Source: Sulfolobaceae archaeon
Lineage (GTDB): Archaea; Thermoproteota; Thermoprotei_A; Sulfolobales; Sulfolobaceae
Direction of reading: 5' to 3'
Assembly (NCBI GenBank): GCA_038893355.1
Contig: JAWARQ010000002.1
Location: forward strand, 64,001-128,000
DNA length: 64,000 nucleotides
Position numbers and translations under genes: made by a program. Shown piece after piece: positions 1,950-10,399 of this stretch (the stretch's first letter is position 1; each line of letters begins with the position of its first letter). The notes beneath the pieces were generated by a model. The model did no database searches. It was not told where the DNA came from and saw nothing but the letters and a program-made list of their open reading frames with translations.

Positions 1950-2978
1950 GTGTTAAGGCTTCAAAATAGGGATTTTATAAGGATTGGGTATGATGTAGAA
2001 TTACCGTTAATAGGTAGTATTGCATTTGGAATTATAGATAGGGGAACAAATATACTACAAGTTAGAGCTAATAGTTATTGTCCTTTAAATTGTATATTCT
2101 GCTCTACAGACGCAGGGCCTAATTCTAGATGGAGAAGATGTGAGTACAGAGTAGATAAAGATCTTTTAGTATCATGGGTTAAGGAAGTTGTTAAGTTTAA
2201 GAAGAAAGATGTAGAGATACATTTAGATAGTGTAGGAGAACCATTAATGTATGATAAATTACCTGACCTAATTCAAGAACTAAAGTCTATACCAAATGTG
2301 AAGGTAGTAAGTATTCAAACTCATGGTTCCTTACTTAGTTATAAGTATGCCGAACGTTTAACTTCAGCAGGATTAGATAGGATAAATCTTAGCATCGATA
2401 CCTTAGATCAAGAAAAGGCGAAGTACTTACAAGGAGCAGAATGGTATAACGTTAAGAGAATAATGGAAATAACTGAATGGATCTTAAGAAATACTAATAC
2501 TGATATACTACTAGCACCAGTATTATTGCATGGAATTAATGATACTGATGTGGAGGATGTAATAAAGTGGGGTAAAAGTATAGGAGTAGGTAAGAGATTT
2601 CCCGGATTTGGTATTCAAGTATTTATGAAACATAAGCATGGCAGAATTCCTAAAGATGTAAAAATCATTAATATGAAAAAATTCGAAAAAATTCTTTTAT
2701 TATGGGAGAAGAAATATAATGTAAAATTAAGATTAAGTGAGGAGGATTTTGGTATCAAAAAGCTTCCTATGATACCCACAATTTTTAAGGAAGGAGAAAA
2801 GGTGAAAGTTAAGATAGTTGCACCAGGTTGGTTAAAAAATGAGTGGTTAGCGGTCCCAGTTGGTAAAGAAGAGAGTAGAGTCATAACCGTTATTGGCAAA
2901 GAGTTAGATATAGAATCTAAAATTAATGTTAGAATAATTAAAAATAAACATAATATATATTTAGCCCGACCCTTATAA
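1950..2978 (+). CDS. Archaeal radical SAM protein with C-terminal TRAM-like domain (COG2100-like)
   Basis: CPLNCIFC motif, GEPL, QTHG, beta-rich C-terminus ending KNKHNIYLA. Confidence 0.8.
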   Translation: MLRLQNRDFIRIGYDVELPLIGSIAFGIIDRGTNILQVRANSYCPLNCIFCSTDAGPNSRWRRCEYRVDKDLLVSWVKEVVKFKKKDVEIHLDSVGEPLMYDKLPDLIQELKSIPNVKVVSIQTHGSLLSYKYAERLTSAGLDRINLSIDTLDQEKAKYLQGAEWYNVKRIMEITEWILRNTNTDILLAPVLLHGINDTDVEDVIKWGKSIGVGKRFPGFGIQVFMKHKHGRIPKDVKIINMKKFEKILLLWEKKYNVKLRLSEEDFGIKKLPMIPTIFKEGEKVKVKIVAPGWLKNEWLAVPVGKEESRVITVIGKELDIESKINVRIIKNKHNIYLARPL

Positions 2979-6573: not shown

Positions 6574-6728
6574 ATGATTCCCTATGTTTATACTATCATA
6601 GCTTAATATAAAAGAGTTTATACTACACTTTCACTTTTATAGAAACAGTCTGGCGTTCAGTAATAAACCTTTTGGTCAAACCTCAAGCATAATCTCAACT
6701 AAGATTGCCACGTGGGCCCTATATAGGA

Positions 6729-6857
6729 GATAGTGTCACCACTAAGCTACAAAAATCCCTTTTACCCTATAACATTTCATGAAAAATTACATTTTACACC
6801 TCTACTCTATAAAGGGAATTTTCATACAATAATTTATAGCTTAATAGTGACACTATC
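6729..6857. mobile_element. 129-bp MITE
   Basis: TIRs GATAGTGTCACCACTAAGCTA and TAGCTTAATAGTGACACTATC (19/21 match); non-coding interior. Confidence 0.85.
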
Positions 6858-6990
6858 TGATTTTTTCTAATTAATTATAAATTATAATTAATATGTATAT
6901 ACTAATAAAATTTTAATTTAATATAAATTAATATGTATCTCTTCCCATTATCATTGCTCTTATGAAAATTCTTATACATCTATAATTCAC

Positions 6991-8133
6991 TTAACTCTTC
7001 TTTTCCTTTAAATATCCAAATAAGTAAGTTATGCCTGATATAAGGACAAAGATAGAGTCAAAATAAAATGGTAATGTATAGCTAGCATCATATAAATATC
7101 CAGAAATAGCATAGCCTATAATGCTACCCAAGTCTTGAGAAGCAGAAATAATACCAACTGCAGAACCCTTAATACTCACTCTTCTACCAATATACGCGGG
7201 CCAAAGTGTGTACAGTGCATTAATAAGAATTGCATTAATGAAAGCGATTAATATAATAACAAATATATTTTTAGAAAGATAAAATAATATTAATATTGAA
7301 GATATTATCAAATTGGCACCTATAATTAAAAATTCATGTAAATTTTTACCATAATTTCCCCATAACTGTGATGCTAAAATATTTCCGATACCAATCATTG
7401 TATAAGTTATACCCACATAACTTGCATTAAGATCTAAAATATCTACTACGAATAATGGAAAAACTATTTGAAATATGCCAAGTCCAATATATTCAAAAAA
7501 GTTACCTAATAAAACTATTAAAATTGATATATTTTTTAAATTTTGAAAATTTATATTATTATTCATCATGTTAATATTATAAACTTTTATATAATTTTTT
7601 AAAGAAAATAAAATTATTAAAGAAAATAATAAAATAATATTTACAAATAGAAAGAAAATTTTATGATTGAAGGTATATAATAGGGATCCAATTAAAGGTC
7701 CTATAGTAGTTGAGATGTAAGAAAGACTATTATATAATCCAAAAGCTTTCCTATATTCATCTTCTTTACTTATAGTCATGATATAAGCTATTAATGAAGG
7801 TCTAAGGAACGAAGTACCAATACCTTCTATCAATCTAACGAGAAATAGATACTGCCAAATCTCTATGAAGTCATAGATGATAAATGCAATTAAATAAAGG
7901 ATAAGTCCTAATAATAATATATTATACTTATTCTTAATATCGAATAGAAAGCCTGTTATCGGTTGAATAATTATCCTAACTATTACATAATTAACTACTA
8001 AAAGTCCTATAGTATAAGTAGGTGCCCCCAGATTTTGGGCGTATAGTGGGAAAATGATAAGAAATGAGAAAAACACAGTATTCACAAATATACTTACAAT
8101 AGAGAGCATTAATAGTACATGAAGTTTATACAA
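6991..8133 (-). CDS. MFS transporter, probable exporter of the cluster product
   Basis: About 12 hydrophobic segments, motif A-like GFLFDIKNK, RLIEGIG, GPLIG; starts 3 nt after the rSAM stop. Confidence 0.9.
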   Translation of the reverse strand: MYKLHVLLMLSIVSIFVNTVFFSFLIIFPLYAQNLGAPTYTIGLLVVNYVIVRIIIQPITGFLFDIKNKYNILLLGLILYLIAFIIYDFIEIWQYLFLVRLIEGIGTSFLRPSLIAYIMTISKEDEYRKAFGLYNSLSYISTTIGPLIGSLLYTFNHKIFFLFVNIILLFSLIILFSLKNYIKVYNINMMNNNINFQNLKNISILIVLLGNFFEYIGLGIFQIVFPLFVVDILDLNASYVGITYTMIGIGNILASQLWGNYGKNLHEFLIIGANLIISSILILFYLSKNIFVIILIAFINAILINALYTLWPAYIGRRVSIKGSAVGIISASQDLGSIIGYAISGYLYDASYTLPFYFDSIFVLISGITYLFGYLKEKKS

Positions 8134-8136
8134 TTT

Positions 8137-9201
8137 CTAATCCCTTAGTGTTTTTGGACAAAATGGGTCTGGAGCGTAAATATCATTTAAGAAAAGGTAT
8201 GCAAATACCCTTGAACCACCTCTGCATTTCTCTACGAATTCACAACTTATACAAGGTTCTTTGAACCAATCATTCTGTCTAAACATATTAAGAGCAACAG
8301 AATTTTTCCATATTTTATCTATAGAATTTTCCCTTACATTATCAAATTTAATAACCCCTTCATAAAGTAATGTGTCTGCAGACTCCACTAAAGGTAAAAC
8401 GTAACCTTCAGGATTTATTATCATACCATAATATCCCCATATGTTAGGCTTAACTTTAAAGTAATCTTTAGCACGATTAATAATTTTAAAACTAATATGC
8501 CTATTATATTCTGCTTCTAAATCAGAAACAATTTCATTAATCTGTATTATTTCTTTAAATTTTGGAATAATCTTAGGATTCTTATAAGCGAAGCCTGCCG
8601 GCAAAACTGGCTGAATAATTAAAGCGTCTAGCTTCCTATATTTTGCATCTAGTTCAATTATTAATTTTAAAATTTTCTTTAGTTTCTCATATAAATTAGC
8701 ATAAATTGACAAATGAAATATTGCAGCCTTATGTTCTCCTTCTTTTTCTTTAAATAATATAATTTTTTTGTAAAAATATTCTAAATTTCTGAATATATTA
8801 TAATCATCACTATTGGCATATCTATATACATGTAGGCTTAATTGCATTAAATCTAGGTAATCTCTAATAATTTTAATGCCATTTTCATTTAATAATAATC
8901 CATTAGAGGAAAGAGCAGTAATCGTATTAAACGATTTAGCATATTTAATTAATTCAATTACACCCTCATATTTTAGAGGCTCTCCTCCAGTAAATATCAA
9001 AATTTTAGTACCTAGCTCAACCACTTGCTTAATTATAGATTTCCATTCCTCTATACTTAACTTTTTTCTATCCATATGAGTTGGGTTAAAACAATATGGG
9101 CATCTGAGATTACAGTCATAAGTTAATTGTAATTCTACAATATGTGGTATCTTTGGATCTAAAGATAATAATTTACTTTGATTTTGTAAAAAATCAAGCA
9201 T
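8137..9201 (-). CDS. PqqE-like radical SAM/SPASM peptide maturase with atypical SPASM domain
   Basis: ELQLTYDCNLRCPYCFNP, FTGGEPL; C-terminal WFKEPCISC-x5-C...PDPFC parallels PqqE. Confidence 0.88.
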   Translation of the reverse strand: MLDFLQNQSKLLSLDPKIPHIVELQLTYDCNLRCPYCFNPTHMDRKKLSIEEWKSIIKQVVELGTKILIFTGGEPLKYEGVIELIKYAKSFNTITALSSNGLLLNENGIKIIRDYLDLMQLSLHVYRYANSDDYNIFRNLEYFYKKIILFKEKEGEHKAAIFHLSIYANLYEKLKKILKLIIELDAKYRKLDALIIQPVLPAGFAYKNPKIIPKFKEIIQINEIVSDLEAEYNRHISFKIINRAKDYFKVKPNIWGYYGMIINPEGYVLPLVESADTLLYEGVIKFDNVRENSIDKIWKNSVALNMFRQNDWFKEPCISCEFVEKCRGGSRVFAYLFLNDIYAPDPFCPKTLRD

Positions 9202-9213
9202 GTTGTAAACCTT

Positions 9214-9366
9214 TTACAATTTTTCCAACGATATCGCTATAACTCCTATATATAATGAAGAACTGATAGGATTGTAATCTACTATATCTTTGTTTCTACT
9301 TAATTCTTTTTTAATCTCATAGACTTTATTTATAGTTATGAATTTAGTAGATAGGTTTCCTTGCAT
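9214..9366 (-). CDS. Putative 50-aa RiPP precursor peptide MQGNLSTKFITINKVYEIKKELSRNKDIVDYNPISSSLYIGVIAISLEKL
   Basis: Internal ATG of the 97-aa track ORF, preceded by GGGGGAT and a TATA box 25-30 nt upstream; ends 12 nt before the rSAM ATG. Confidence 0.7.
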   Translation of the reverse strand: MQGNLSTKFITINKVYEIKKELSRNKDIVDYNPISSSLYIGVIAISLEKL

Positions 9367-9390
9367 TTTTATCCCCCAGATTATCTTTAA

Positions 9391-9411
9391 CTTAAACGGT
9401 TTTTTTTTTTT
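9391..9411 (-). promoter_or_regulatory. BRE/TATA promoter of the peptide-rSAM-MFS operon
   Basis: Minus strand A12-CCG-TTTAAG, with the TATA 25-30 nt upstream of ATG 9366. Confidence 0.6.
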
Positions 9412-9534
9412 AACTCTCAATAATTCTAAAAAGTTATCATAAATAACAGTTATTATGTCAATAAAATTTAAACACTTGTCATTAATACTAATATCATATA
9501 TAAACAATTTTTAATAAACCTTAAGAATTACATT

Positions 9535-9897
9535 CCCGTAGACCCCAAATTCATCACCTCGAAAATAATTCTAGAGAGTTAAAAATTGGATAGAATAATT
9601 TAACTGAATATTCTTGAATCGTAGTAATATTACCTTACAAAACAAAATCAAGATAATTAGTAGTAAGCGGAAGTCCTCTTTGCTTGTTGTTCCCCTTGAA
9701 GAGTAGGTAAAGCGTGTAAATTAACATTGCCAAAGCGAAGATGAACAAGCGAACTAACCAACTCCTTGATGAGGTAAAGATGAGAAATGATTTGATTAGC
9801 TTGTAAGAAGTCTCTATTGGTGTCCTAACCTTGTCATACCAATTTATTACAATACTCCTATGCACGTCTAGGTTCGTCCCCTTGGCCAAGTACTCTA
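9535..9897 (-). pseudogene. 3' fragment of an ISH3-family (IS4-like) transposase with its terminal sequence
   Basis: EYLAKGTNLD..YDKVRTPIETSYKLIK..FTSSR..RLFIF DDE C-terminal signature. Continues through two frameshifts (GTTSKEDFRLLL; QEYSVKLFYPIFNSLELFSR*). Putative end CCCGTAGACCCC at 9535. Confidence 0.85.
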
Positions 9898-10258
9898 TAT
9901 AGGAAGTTGATTAGGATTGTATTGAGTGTTTGATATAATAATAAGCCTTACGAGCCTAAGTGATTGAGGAACCCTCCCCTAATCGCCACGTGGGCCCTTT
10001 AGACCCACGTGGTAATGTTAGCTTACACTATGCTTGAAATATGACCGAAAGATTTATTACTAAACGCCAGGCTGCATAGAAATATCCAAACAACTTAATT
10101 GCTAATTTTTCGAAATTCTTTAGTATTAGTATATAGATAACAAGGGCTAATTAAAATTATAAATTATATTATATAATTAAAAAGATAAAAAATTATTTTA
10201 TTATTTTTAATTAAATTATGAATACATCTAAAAATTGAAATTTAATTTTAAAACTTTA

Positions 10259-10344
10259 CGCCGGGGGCGGGATTTGAACCCGCGCGGGGGAAACCCCCAG
10301 CGGCTTAGCAGGCCGCCGCCCTGGCCAGACTAGGCGACCCCGGC
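10259..10344 (-). tRNA. tRNA-Ser(GCT)
   Basis: GCCGGGG/CCCCGGC acceptor stem, GCGGC-CT-GCT-AA-GCCGC anticodon arm, long variable arm, GGTTCAAATCC. Confidence 0.97.
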
Positions 10345-10399
10345 AATATATCATATTTATTTACTCCTTAAAAACTCTTATTCACTTAGAATTGATTTC

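What the first reader, a model, noticed from the sequence alone, without database searches (positions are those of the whole stretch)
9214..9366. Hidden precursor peptide with leader/core bipartition
The ORF track reads 97 aa through the promoter, but TATA spacing and GGGGGAT point to ATG 9366. Residues 1-30 are charged (leader-like). The C-terminus YNPISSSLYIGVIAISLEKL is Tyr/Ser/Ile-rich and hydrophobic (core-like). There is no Cys, which excludes sacti- and ranthipeptide chemistry. DIVDY echoes PqqA's ExxxY, and YNP/YIG fit aromatic-X-X cyclophane patterns, so Tyr-based crosslinking is the leading guess.
Basis: partly seen in the sequence, partly recalled or inferred. Interest (0 to 1): 0.75.

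Follow-up and report, generated by a model that had tools for sequence, protein, structure and literature searches.

The report
Orphan small ORF before archaeal rSAM
A 50-codon gene with no known relatives sits just upstream of an unusual PqqE-like radical SAM enzyme and an export pump in an AT-rich archaeon; it may be the peptide that the enzyme modifies, but this is not shown.

Summary
The ORF is real and reads as described: 9214-9366, minus strand, 50 aa, no Cys, Tyr16/31/39. It ends 12 nt before a radical SAM gene (8137-9201), which is followed after 3 nt by an MFS transporter (6991-8133). The enzyme is PqqE-like by sequence and by fold but is not PqqE. It scores 168.6 bits against a cut-off of 381, has no pqqB/C/D neighbours, and lacks all four AuxI cluster ligands while keeping an all-Cys AuxII site. 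Its single close relative (38% identity) shows the same pattern.

The peptide found only itself in a word-index search and in an exhaustive phmmer run over 1.84 billion proteins. The relative's DNA lies in a closed collection, so conservation is untested.

The frame is open for 98 codons (5 of 5000 shuffles), not only 50, and starts 20 nt or less from the end of an ISSis6-like IS remnant. The ATG-9366 start is therefore not secure.

The cassette is low in GC and lies between 71-nt inverted repeats flanked by a 7-nt direct repeat.

A precursor peptide remains the best single reading (about 0.35). The Tyr-crosslink guess has no support: there is no ExxxY motif, and the presumed oxidant cluster is absent. 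Interest is moderate.

The parts
9214..9366 (-). 50-codon ORF (P0001), the candidate precursor peptide. ATG start, TAA stop.
   Evidence: No family or homolog found.
9367..9510 (-). 48 further stop-free codons in the same frame. Includes TTG 9507 and the A12 run 9400-9411.
   Evidence: A run of 98 or more stop-free codons arose in 5 of 5000 shuffles. Frame 0 is the best of six by host codon usage.
9371..9377 (-). Purine-rich Shine-Dalgarno-like GGGGGAT, 4 nt before ATG 9366.
   Evidence: Two internal operon genes of the window (KH-domain gene, Rio1) carry GGTG upstream.
8137..9201 (-). Radical SAM/SPASM enzyme (P0002, 354 aa). PqqE-like, with the AuxI ligands missing.
6991..8133 (-). MFS transporter (380 aa from TTG 8133). 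Presumed exporter.
   Evidence: PF07690 at 138.8 bits; efflux-type NCBIfam hits. This exact TTG-start sequence is not in the protein collection, so the start is uncertain.
9530..9889 (-). Remnant of an ISSis6-like (ISH3 family) insertion sequence: a C-terminal transposase fragment (9635-9889) plus the conserved right end (to about 9532).
   Evidence: NF033541 at 48.8 bits, profile positions 237-298 of 298. 53% aa identity to the ISSis6 transposase of a Sulfolobus islandicus plasmid. Right-end alignment.
6646..6716 (.). Left arm of the 71-nt inverted repeat that bounds the cassette.
   Evidence: 82% complementary to 10004-10074.
10004..10074 (.). Right arm of the 71-nt inverted repeat.
6639..6645 (.). 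ATAGAAA, left copy of a 7-nt direct repeat that abuts the arms. The right copy lies at 10076-10082.
   Evidence: Chance of such a flank match: 3174 of 2,000,000 random position pairs.

Best explanation
The ORF is the first cistron of a three-gene, horizontally acquired operon: small ORF, radical SAM enzyme, MFS pump.

Its product is most likely the substrate of the enzyme. That makes it a ribosomally made precursor whose charged, partly helical N-terminal part docks on the maturase. Its Cys-free, Tyr/Ser/Ile-rich C-terminal part would be modified by 5'-deoxyadenosyl radical chemistry, and the product or a fragment of it would leave the cell through the MFS transporter.

Shown here:
- the gene order and spacing
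- the PqqE-like sequence and fold of the enzyme
- the intact radical SAM and AuxII Cys sets
- the loss of AuxI
- the non-random open frame

Inferred:
- that the ORF is translated
- its start (ATG 9366 giving 50 aa, or TTG 9507 giving 97 aa)
- that it binds the enzyme
- the chemistry

AuxI sits about 16-17 A from the radical SAM cluster in anSME and in a PqqE model, and AuxII about 27-28 A. Without AuxI, a redox-neutral outcome (for example epimerisation or H-atom rearrangement), or a crosslink that uses another electron acceptor, is more likely than the canonical PqqE or SuiB type of oxidative C-C coupling.
For: **Arrangement**
- The ORF stop lies 12 nt before the rSAM ATG, and the rSAM stop lies 3 nt before the MFS start. 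All three are on the minus strand.

**Enzyme**
- CxxxCxxC at C30/C34/C37. PF04055 scores 64.2 bits and PF13186 (SPASM) 29.2 bits.
- The best NCBIfam model is PqqE, E 1.8e-49 over residues 18-350.
- The best solved sequence is PqqE 6c8v, E 1.9e-24.
- The AF2 model has pLDDT 88.6 and pTM 0.90. Its first 10 Foldseek ranks are PqqE, SuiB, a sactipeptide synthase (5why/5wgg) and SkfB, all peptide maturases.

**Open frame**
- It is non-random.
- Frame 0 is the best of six frames in both halves under host codon usage. In true genes this holds for 192 of 212 50-codon windows.
- The codon log-odds of the ORF (0.166) lies between those of its two operon partners, rSAM 0.236 and MFS 0.134.

**Start signals**
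- ATG preceded by GGGGGAT.
- The protein collection (NCBI as source) and the ESM Atlas hold exactly this 50-aa product.

**Family behaviour**
- The AuxI-less pattern is shared by the only close relative, P0003, at 38% identity. The enzyme family therefore appears to be kept as it is rather than to be a one-off wreck.
Against: **No conservation evidence**
- The word-index search found only the query (1 of 1 candidates).
- phmmer over 1,835,955,588 representatives found 1 protein with E of 0.001 or less, the query itself.
- For the 97-aa reading, 4 candidates shared words and none scored.
- tblastn of the 97-aa reading against plasmids and phages found nothing.
- Pfam and NCBIfam gave nothing, and the Atlas gave nothing.

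**Missing accessory genes**
- The enzyme has no room for a RiPP recognition element: only 29 residues precede the Cys motif.
- No PqqD-like or peptidase gene appeared among the 36 neighbouring ORFs scanned (6, 30). Six ORFs went to NCBIfam only, 28 to Pfam only, and only the enzyme and the transporter to both.

**Weak coding signal**
- The ORF's log-odds of 0.166 falls below 92% of true-gene windows, and 12% of spurious ORFs reach it.
- With a model trained on the two cassette genes, frame 0 of the 50-codon part is not the best frame.

**Doubts about the start**
- The upstream 48 codons look at least as coding as the 50-codon part.
- They begin 20 nt or less from an IS end. ATG 9366 may be an internal Met of a longer or truncated gene.
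- A TATA-like TTATATATA inside the ORF could give the rSAM a promoter of its own.

**Other**
- MFS pumps usually move small molecules.
Confidence: 0.35

Rival explanations
1. The ORF is not a functional gene. It is the decaying 3' part of a longer gene cut off by the ISSis6-like insertion, or simply the 5' untranslated region of the operon. The radical SAM enzyme acts on a substrate encoded elsewhere, or on a small molecule that the MFS pump carries.
For: - The frame is open for 98 codons and begins 20 nt or less from the conserved right end of the IS remnant. That is what truncation by insertion would leave.
- No homolog was found by any search.
- The coding score is weak.
- An A12 homopolymer lies inside the frame.
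- A TATA-like string at about 9247-9255, some 50 nt before the rSAM ATG, could drive the enzyme alone.
- Relatives of this enzyme class also act on non-peptide substrates. AhbD, NirJ and MoaA appear among the weaker hits.
Against: - The frame has stayed open in 24% GC DNA (5 of 5000 shuffles).
- ATG with a Shine-Dalgarno-like motif sits at the right distance.
- The 12-nt spacing to the next gene is typical of coupled cistrons.
- The enzyme's best sequence and structure matches are peptide maturases, not the cofactor enzymes.
Confidence: 0.3
2. The real product is the 97-aa protein from TTG 9507 (or was once longer). It is a small folded accessory protein of the enzyme, such as a chaperone or scaffold, and not a leader/core precursor.
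For: - The whole 98-codon frame is non-random.
- The upstream half scores higher than the 50-codon half (0.219 against 0.166; frame margin 0.097 against 0.057).
- The size is that of PqqD- or MftB-type partners that precede such enzymes (recalled).
- The single-sequence AF2 model gives a compact beta-alpha-beta-beta-alpha-beta order, in which the hydrophobic C-terminus is a strand.
Against: - The model is poor (pLDDT 57.3, pTM 0.42) and has no structural neighbour. 0 of at least 500 matches counted reached E of 0.001 or less.
- There is no PqqD or other family hit. Pfam gave 0; the only NCBIfam row is NuoC at E 0.08, 12.9 bits against a cut-off of 144.
- The predicted order of elements is not the three strands followed by three helices of a recognition element (recalled).
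- TTG 9507 has no Shine-Dalgarno motif, and I saw no TATA-like string at about -27.
- The collections hold the 50-aa form, not the 97-aa form.
Confidence: 0.15
3. The whole cassette is inert cargo of a defunct mobile element. The enzyme has lost a cluster because it is decaying, and none of the three genes does anything for the host today.
For: - The cassette has 21-30% GC against 32-37% in the flanks.
- It lies between 71-nt inverted repeats with a 7-nt flanking direct repeat.
- It sits beside a broken transposase.
- The enzyme has only one close relative among 5.8 billion proteins.
Against: - All three frames are intact.
- The AF2 model of the enzyme is confident throughout the SPASM region.
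- The same four AuxI positions are non-Cys in P0003 at only 38% identity, while the seven remaining Cys are kept in both. That speaks for selection on an AuxI-less form.
Confidence: 0.1

Closest known systems
PqqA/PqqE of pyrroloquinoline quinone biosynthesis
   Same: - A small peptide gene sits next to a radical SAM/SPASM enzyme.
- The enzyme's best family, best solved sequence and best structural neighbour are all PqqE.
   Different: - It scores 168.6 bits against the equivalog cut-off of 381.35.
- No pqqB/C/D genes appeared among the 36 neighbouring ORFs scanned.
- All four AuxI ligands (PqqE C248, C268, C323, C325) are absent.
- The Asp ligand of AuxII, reported as conserved in all PqqE homologs, is Cys326 here (PMC5715301 passages).
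- The peptide is 50 aa and has no ExxxY.
Twitch-domain radical SAM enzymes (BtrN, MoaA, SkfB)
   Same: They have one auxiliary cluster instead of two.
   Different: - Twitch domains lack the CX2CX5CX3C part and keep the cluster near the active site (PMC5715301 passages).
- Here it is the reverse. The CX2CX5C part and the last Cys (the AuxII set) are kept, and the active-site-proximal AuxI set is lost.
YydF/YydG epipeptide system of Bacillus subtilis
   Same: - A radical SAM enzyme with one extra C-terminal [4Fe-4S] cluster acts on hydrophobic Ile/Val residues of a Cys-free core.
- The chemistry is redox-neutral (PMC5682303 passages).
- The precursor length of about 49 aa is recalled.
   Different: - YydG gives the H atom back from an enzyme Cys, Cys223. 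This enzyme has no Cys beyond its seven cluster ligands.
- YydG does not show among the 25 of 74 NCBIfam hits that were listed.
- The yyd operon has a protease and an ABC exporter (recalled). This cassette has an MFS pump only.
Three-residue cyclophane (triceptide) and streptide-type crosslinking maturases (WgkB, SuiB)
   Same: - They belong to the rSAM/SPASM peptide maturases.
- The peptide has aromatic-X-X strings (YNP, YIG).
   Different: - WgkB model: 60.9 bits against a cut-off of 650.
- The motifs are not repeated, and their third residues are Pro and Gly.
- AuxI, for which a review reports evidence as the oxidant of the Lys-Trp radical in SuiB (PMC10114670 passages), is missing.
ISSis6 (ISH3 family) of Sulfolobus islandicus
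   Same: - The transposase fragment is 53% identical over 66 residues.
- The right terminal region aligns.
   Different: - Only about 62 of the 298 profile positions remain.
- No matching left end was found.
- The 71-nt arms around the cassette do not resemble the ISSis6 ends.

Membership tests
Radical SAM superfamily | CxxxCxxC motif and a PF04055 match above the gathering score | tested here: met
   C30, C34, C37. PF04055 scores 64.2 bits against 29.5.
SPASM subfamily | PF13186 match above the gathering score | tested here: met
   29.2 bits against 21.5, residues 256-320.
SPASM subfamily | Full seven-Cys motif that ligates two auxiliary clusters | tested here: not met
   Only C317, C320, C326 and C348 are present. 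The AuxI columns are a gap, L271, S330 and V332. The first three of those columns are non-Cys in 4 of 43 aligned sequences, this one included.
PqqE (TIGR02109 equivalog) | Score at or above the curated cut-off | tested here: not met
   168.6 bits against 381.35.
PqqE (TIGR02109 equivalog) | Asp ligand of AuxII (D319), conserved in all PqqE homologs | tested here: not met
   Cys326 stands at that position. The conservation claim comes from PMC5715301, passages.
PQQ operon | pqqB, pqqC and pqqD next to pqqE | tested here: not met
   None appeared among the 36 ORFs scanned (6, 30; 6 by NCBIfam only, 28 by Pfam only, 2 by both). They lie between 1950 and 42405. The rest of the window was not scanned.
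PqqA | Glu-X-X-X-Tyr crosslink pair in a peptide of about 20-40 aa (length recalled) | tested here: not met
   Glu at 17, 21 and 48; Tyr at 16, 31 and 39. No pair has a spacing of 4. DIVDY is Asp-X-X-X-Tyr.
Twitch domain | Lacks CX2CX5CX3C and keeps the AuxI-like cluster | tested here: not met
   CX2CX5C is present and the AuxI ligands are absent (definition from PMC5715301 passages).
RiPP precursor peptide (generic) | Short gene, co-directional with and adjacent to the maturase gene | tested here: met
   50 codons, 12 nt upstream, same strand.
RiPP precursor peptide (generic) | Peptide conserved beside homologous maturases, with an invariant core pattern | tested here: inconclusive
   No homolog was found. 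The genome scan gave 12 loci, all matching only within residues 7-147 of the enzyme, and one that I inspected was an unrelated small rSAM. The contig of the one close relative, P0003, lies in a closed collection.
RiPP precursor peptide (generic) | Recognition element (PqqD-like) in the enzyme or in a neighbour | tested here: not met
   Only 29 residues precede the Cys motif. PF05402 did not hit the enzyme or the 97-aa ORF, nor the 30 neighbouring ORFs scanned with Pfam. Some maturases do without one (recalled).
RiPP precursor peptide (generic) | The peptide is made, and the enzyme modifies it | not testable with these tools
   This needs transcript or proteome data and co-expression.
ISH3-family insertion sequence | Full transposase above the curated cut-off, between two matching ends | tested here: not met
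   48.8 bits against 225, profile positions 237-298 only. Only the right end is recognisable.

The most novel reading that the evidence does not exclude
A mobile three-gene cassette in a Sulfolobales-like archaeon makes a new kind of archaeal ribosomal natural product. A Cys-free, Tyr/Ile-rich peptide would be modified by a PqqE-derived radical SAM enzyme. That enzyme has discarded the active-site-proximal AuxI cluster but kept the distal AuxII, so it would perform a modification unlike the known crosslinks. An MFS pump would export the product.
Probability: 0.25. Interest if true: 0.7.

Novelty: new variant of a known kind. Interest (0 to 1): 0.45.

Why it matters
**If the peptide is a substrate**
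- My one search on Sulfolobales, RiPP and radical SAM returned two papers. The one I opened holds nothing on the point, and the other I saw only in the listing.
- This would give a compact three-gene system to express and test.

**Whatever the peptide turns out to be**
- The enzyme keeps AuxII and has lost AuxI, the opposite of a Twitch domain.
- AuxI is thought to take the electron from the substrate radical and hand it to AuxII (PMC5715301 and PMC10114670 passages).
- An enzyme with only the distal cluster, about 27-28 A from the radical SAM cluster in anSME and in a PqqE model, tests that view directly.

**Mobile context**
- It suggests that such cassettes travel between thermoacidophile genomes.

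Tried and rejected
**Complex prediction**
- Enzyme alignment A3, the 50-aa peptide, two 4Fe-4S and SAM.
- Verdict: no answer. Median score 0.30 against a mark of 0.32 (runs 0.30, 0.44, 0.19); the controls were not run.
- It counts neither for nor against binding.

**Genome scan for relatives of the enzyme**
- 54 stretches matched a pattern and 12 were confirmed, all only within the N-terminal radical SAM core (query residues 7-147).
- The one I opened (L012) is an unrelated small rSAM in pieces. The other 11 were not opened.
- The window's own genome did not appear, so no locus was available for comparing upstream ORFs.

**Searches that found nothing useful**
- Plasmids with the enzyme: 228 records, all under 60% identity, best 30.4%, ordinary bacterial pqqE.
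- Plasmids and phages with the 97-aa ORF: no match.
- DNA 9560-10260 against plasmids: no match.
- Atlas look-alike search of the 97-aa ORF: no usable hit.
- tblastn of the ORF against the window: no paralog.
- Rfam on the whole window: two tRNAs only, so no riboswitch or known RNA overlaps the ORF.

**Structure of the 97-aa ORF**
- Foldseek of the low-confidence model gave no match with E of 0.001 or less. The top rows were generic beta-alpha-beta domains.

**Promoter scan**
- The bacterial-type scan is uninformative here: 31 sites against 27.3 +/- 5.8 in shuffles, and 0 terminators.

**Literature**
- A six-term search for AuxI-less SPASM enzymes returned 0 papers. This is one search and does not show that nothing is in print.

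**Not attempted or not possible**
- I considered a PqqD profile comparison for the 97-aa ORF. I dropped it as low-yield after Pfam and NCBIfam gave nothing.
- The organism was not identified.

Full report
**What is at the coordinates.** On the minus strand an ATG at 9366 opens a 50-codon frame that ends with TAA at 9216-9214. The product has no Cys and carries Tyr at positions 16, 31 and 39. Ten of its first 30 residues are charged, against two of its last 20. GGGGGAT lies 4 nt upstream of the ATG. Two internal operon genes in the window carry GGTG-type motifs, so a purine-rich ribosome-binding site is plausible here. The literal observation is therefore confirmed. It is not hidden, though: the same 50-aa protein is already in the protein collection with NCBI as a source and in the ESM Atlas.

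**Is it more than chance?** The 433-nt spacer 9202-9634 has 24% GC, so stop codons are frequent. In 5000 dinucleotide-preserving shuffles, a same-strand ATG ORF of at least 50 codons appeared 102 times. A same-strand stop-free run of at least 98 codons appeared 5 times; in six frames the counts were 242 and 19. The real frame is open for 98 codons, from the stop at 9513-9511 to 9217. The unlikely feature is thus the whole frame, not only the part after ATG 9366.

Codon statistics point the same way, but weakly.
- The log-odds per codon against wrong-frame sequence is 0.166 for the 50 codons and 0.219 for the 48 codons upstream.
- It is 0.236 for the rSAM gene and 0.134 for the MFS gene.
- It is 0.314 +/- 0.105 for 303 true-gene windows and -0.069 +/- 0.218 for 133 spurious ORFs, of which 12% reach the peptide's value.
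- With stops ignored, frame 0 is the best of six frames in both halves under the host model. That holds for 192 of 212 true-gene windows. Under a model trained on the two cassette genes, the 50-codon half is not best in frame 0.

I conclude that the frame is or recently was coding, and that its start is not settled.

**The neighbours.** Twelve nucleotides downstream starts a 354-aa radical SAM protein (8137-9201). Three nucleotides after its stop starts a 380-aa MFS transporter (6991-8133).
- The enzyme has CxxxCxxC at C30/C34/C37, a Radical_SAM match (64.2 bits) and a SPASM match (29.2 bits).
- Its best curated family is PqqE, E 1.8e-49 over nearly the full length, but at 168.6 bits against a cut-off of 381.35.
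- Its best solved relative by sequence is PqqE 6c8v, E 1.9e-24.
- An AlphaFold2 model built on a 43-row alignment is confident (pLDDT 88.6, pTM 0.90).
- The model's first ten Foldseek ranks are PqqE, SuiB, a sactipeptide thioether synthase and SkfB, all peptide-modifying enzymes.

The 36 neighbouring ORFs scanned (6 with NCBIfam, 30 with Pfam) showed no PqqB, PqqC, PqqD or peptidase. They are ordinary archaeal housekeeping and metabolic genes: aIF-1A, Rio1, a KH protein, aconitase, beta-oxidation enzymes and 2-oxoacid oxidoreductase.

**An unusual enzyme.** The protein has only seven Cys. Three form the radical SAM site. The other four (C317, C320, C326, C348) align with the AuxII ligands.
- A paper on PqqE gives AuxI as C248, C268, C323 and C325. 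It gives AuxII as C310, C313, C341 plus Asp319, and reports that Asp as conserved in all PqqE homologs.
- The same paper gives anSME AuxII as four Cys.
- It gives cluster distances in anSME of 16.9 A (RS to AuxI), 12.9 A (AuxI to AuxII) and 26.7 A (RS to AuxII), and about 16, 14 and 28 A in its PqqE model (PMC5715301, passages read).
- In the window's enzyme the four AuxI positions are a deletion, L271, S330 and V332, and the Asp position is Cys326.
- In the 43-sequence alignment the first three AuxI columns are Cys in 39 sequences and non-Cys in 4. Those 4 are this protein, P0003, P0038 and P0040. The last two also lack the final AuxII Cys.

P0003 is the only close relative among 165 hits: 38% identity and 251 bits, while the next hit drops to 30% and 130 bits. 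It shares the pattern exactly. So this is a small lineage of PqqE-derived enzymes that lost the cluster next to the active site and kept the distal one. That is the reverse of a Twitch domain (definition in PMC5715301). A review reports evidence that AuxI is the oxidant of the crosslink radical in SuiB (PMC10114670, passages). A YydG-like epimerisation is a possible model: one extra cluster, hydrophobic Ile/Val targets and redox-neutral chemistry (PMC5682303, passages). But YydG returns the hydrogen from an enzyme Cys, and this enzyme has no spare Cys.

**Conservation of the peptide.**
- The word-index search of 5.8 billion proteins found one candidate, the query.
- phmmer against all 1,835,955,588 representatives found one protein with E of 0.001 or less, the query.
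- The 97-aa reading found four word-sharing candidates, and none scored.
- tblastn of the 97-aa reading against plasmids and phages found nothing.
- Pfam and NCBIfam gave nothing except a NuoC row at E 0.08, far under its cut-off.
All matched only the N-terminal radical SAM core, and the one I inspected was an unrelated small enzyme.

No locus with a true relative of the enzyme could be read, and the contig of P0003 lies in a collection that was closed. A 50-aa query also has little power at the 38% identity expected.

**Start codon and the insertion sequence.** Upstream of the frame lies an 84-codon ORF (9635-9889) that matches only the last 62 of the 298 profile positions of the ISH3-family transposase model. 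It is 53% identical to the ISSis6 transposase of a Sulfolobus islandicus plasmid. The DNA from 9600 down to about 9532 aligns with the right terminal region of that element. The IS remnant therefore ends no more than about 20 nt before the stop that opens the 98-codon frame. Two readings follow.
- The promoter of the cassette lies in the 165 nt between the IS end and ATG 9366. TATA-like strings at -30 to -15 and the A12 run at 9400-9411 both fit, one giving a leaderless and the other a short-leader transcript.
- Alternatively the frame is what is left of a longer gene cut by the insertion, and Met48 is internal.

TTG 9507 has no Shine-Dalgarno motif before it. A single-sequence AlphaFold2 model of the 97-aa form is poor (pLDDT 57.3, pTM 0.42), and no Foldseek match reached E 0.001. 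A TATA-like TTATATATA inside the ORF, about 50 nt before the rSAM ATG, could also serve the enzyme alone. None of this can be decided from sequence.

**Mobile context.** The cassette has 21-30% GC against 32-37% in the flanking genes. It is bounded by 71-nt inverted repeats at 6646-6716 and 10004-10074, 82% complementary. Outside the arms lies ATAGAAA at 6639-6645 and again at 10076-10082, one base off register. A flank match of that kind arose in 3174 of 2,000,000 random position pairs in comparable DNA. The unit sits between the aIF-1A gene and a tRNA-Ser gene at 10258-10345. The arms do not resemble the ISSis6 ends. I read this as a transposon-like, non-autonomous unit that carries the three genes and an IS remnant. 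It fits the near-absence of relatives.

**Verdict.** The most likely single reading is that the ORF is the first cistron of an acquired operon and the substrate of an orphan, AuxI-less PqqE-like maturase (about 0.35). The rivals are listed below.
- A non-functional remnant or untranslated leader, about 0.3.
- A 97-aa accessory protein, about 0.15.
- An inert cassette, about 0.1.

The organism was not identified. The IS match, the GGTG motifs and the 32% GC suggest a Sulfolobales-like archaeon, which is an inference. What is solid and unusual is the enzyme. What the finding claimed, the peptide and its Tyr chemistry, remains a reasonable but untested guess, and its chemical part is weakened.

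Noticed in passing
window 6639-10082: The peptide-rSAM-MFS cassette and an IS remnant lie between 71-nt inverted repeats (6646-6716 and 10004-10074). These are flanked by a 7-nt direct repeat, ATAGAAA. The segment has lower GC than its surroundings. It looks like a non-autonomous transposon-like unit inserted between the aIF-1A gene and tRNA-Ser.
   Followed up: partly
window 9530-9889: Remnant of an ISSis6-like (ISH3 family) insertion sequence. Only the C-terminal part of the transposase and the right terminal region survive, and no left end was found. It ends 20 nt or less before the 98-codon frame.
   Followed up: partly
window 8137-9201: The radical SAM enzyme keeps the four AuxII Cys but has no Cys at any of the four AuxI ligand positions of PqqE. 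Its only close relative (P0003, 38% identity) shows the same. Two more distant proteins (P0038, P0040) also lack AuxI Cys, but they lack the last AuxII Cys as well.
   Followed up: partly
window 9400-9411: A run of 12 A on the coding strand lies inside the 98-codon frame, where it encodes KKKK. This is an indel-prone homopolymer. It could also be part of the promoter of a transcript that starts just before the GGGGGAT motif.
   Followed up: no
window 9247-9255: A TATA-like TTATATATA lies inside the small ORF (the Leu-Tyr-Ile codons), about 50 nt upstream of the rSAM start. It is a possible internal promoter that would let the enzyme be expressed without the ORF.
   Followed up: no
window 9407-9425 and 9567-9585: A 19-nt inverted repeat, 89% complementary with 141 nt between the arms, brackets the IS end and the upstream half of the open frame. 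It may be chance in AT-rich DNA.
   Followed up: no
window 6991-8133: The MFS protein read from TTG 8133 is not in the protein collection as an exact sequence, unlike its neighbours. Gene callers probably use a later start, so the 3-nt spacing to the rSAM stop is not certain.
   Followed up: no
window 1950-2978: A second radical SAM protein (342 aa) matches PF04055 only and has no SPASM domain. It sits next to the lysyl-tRNA synthetase gene. Its function was not examined.
   Followed up: no
window 6728-6753 and 6833-6858: A 26-nt inverted repeat, 88% complementary with 79 nt between the arms, lies just inside the left arm of the unit and downstream of the MFS gene. It may be a hairpin or a small repeat element.
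   Followed up: no
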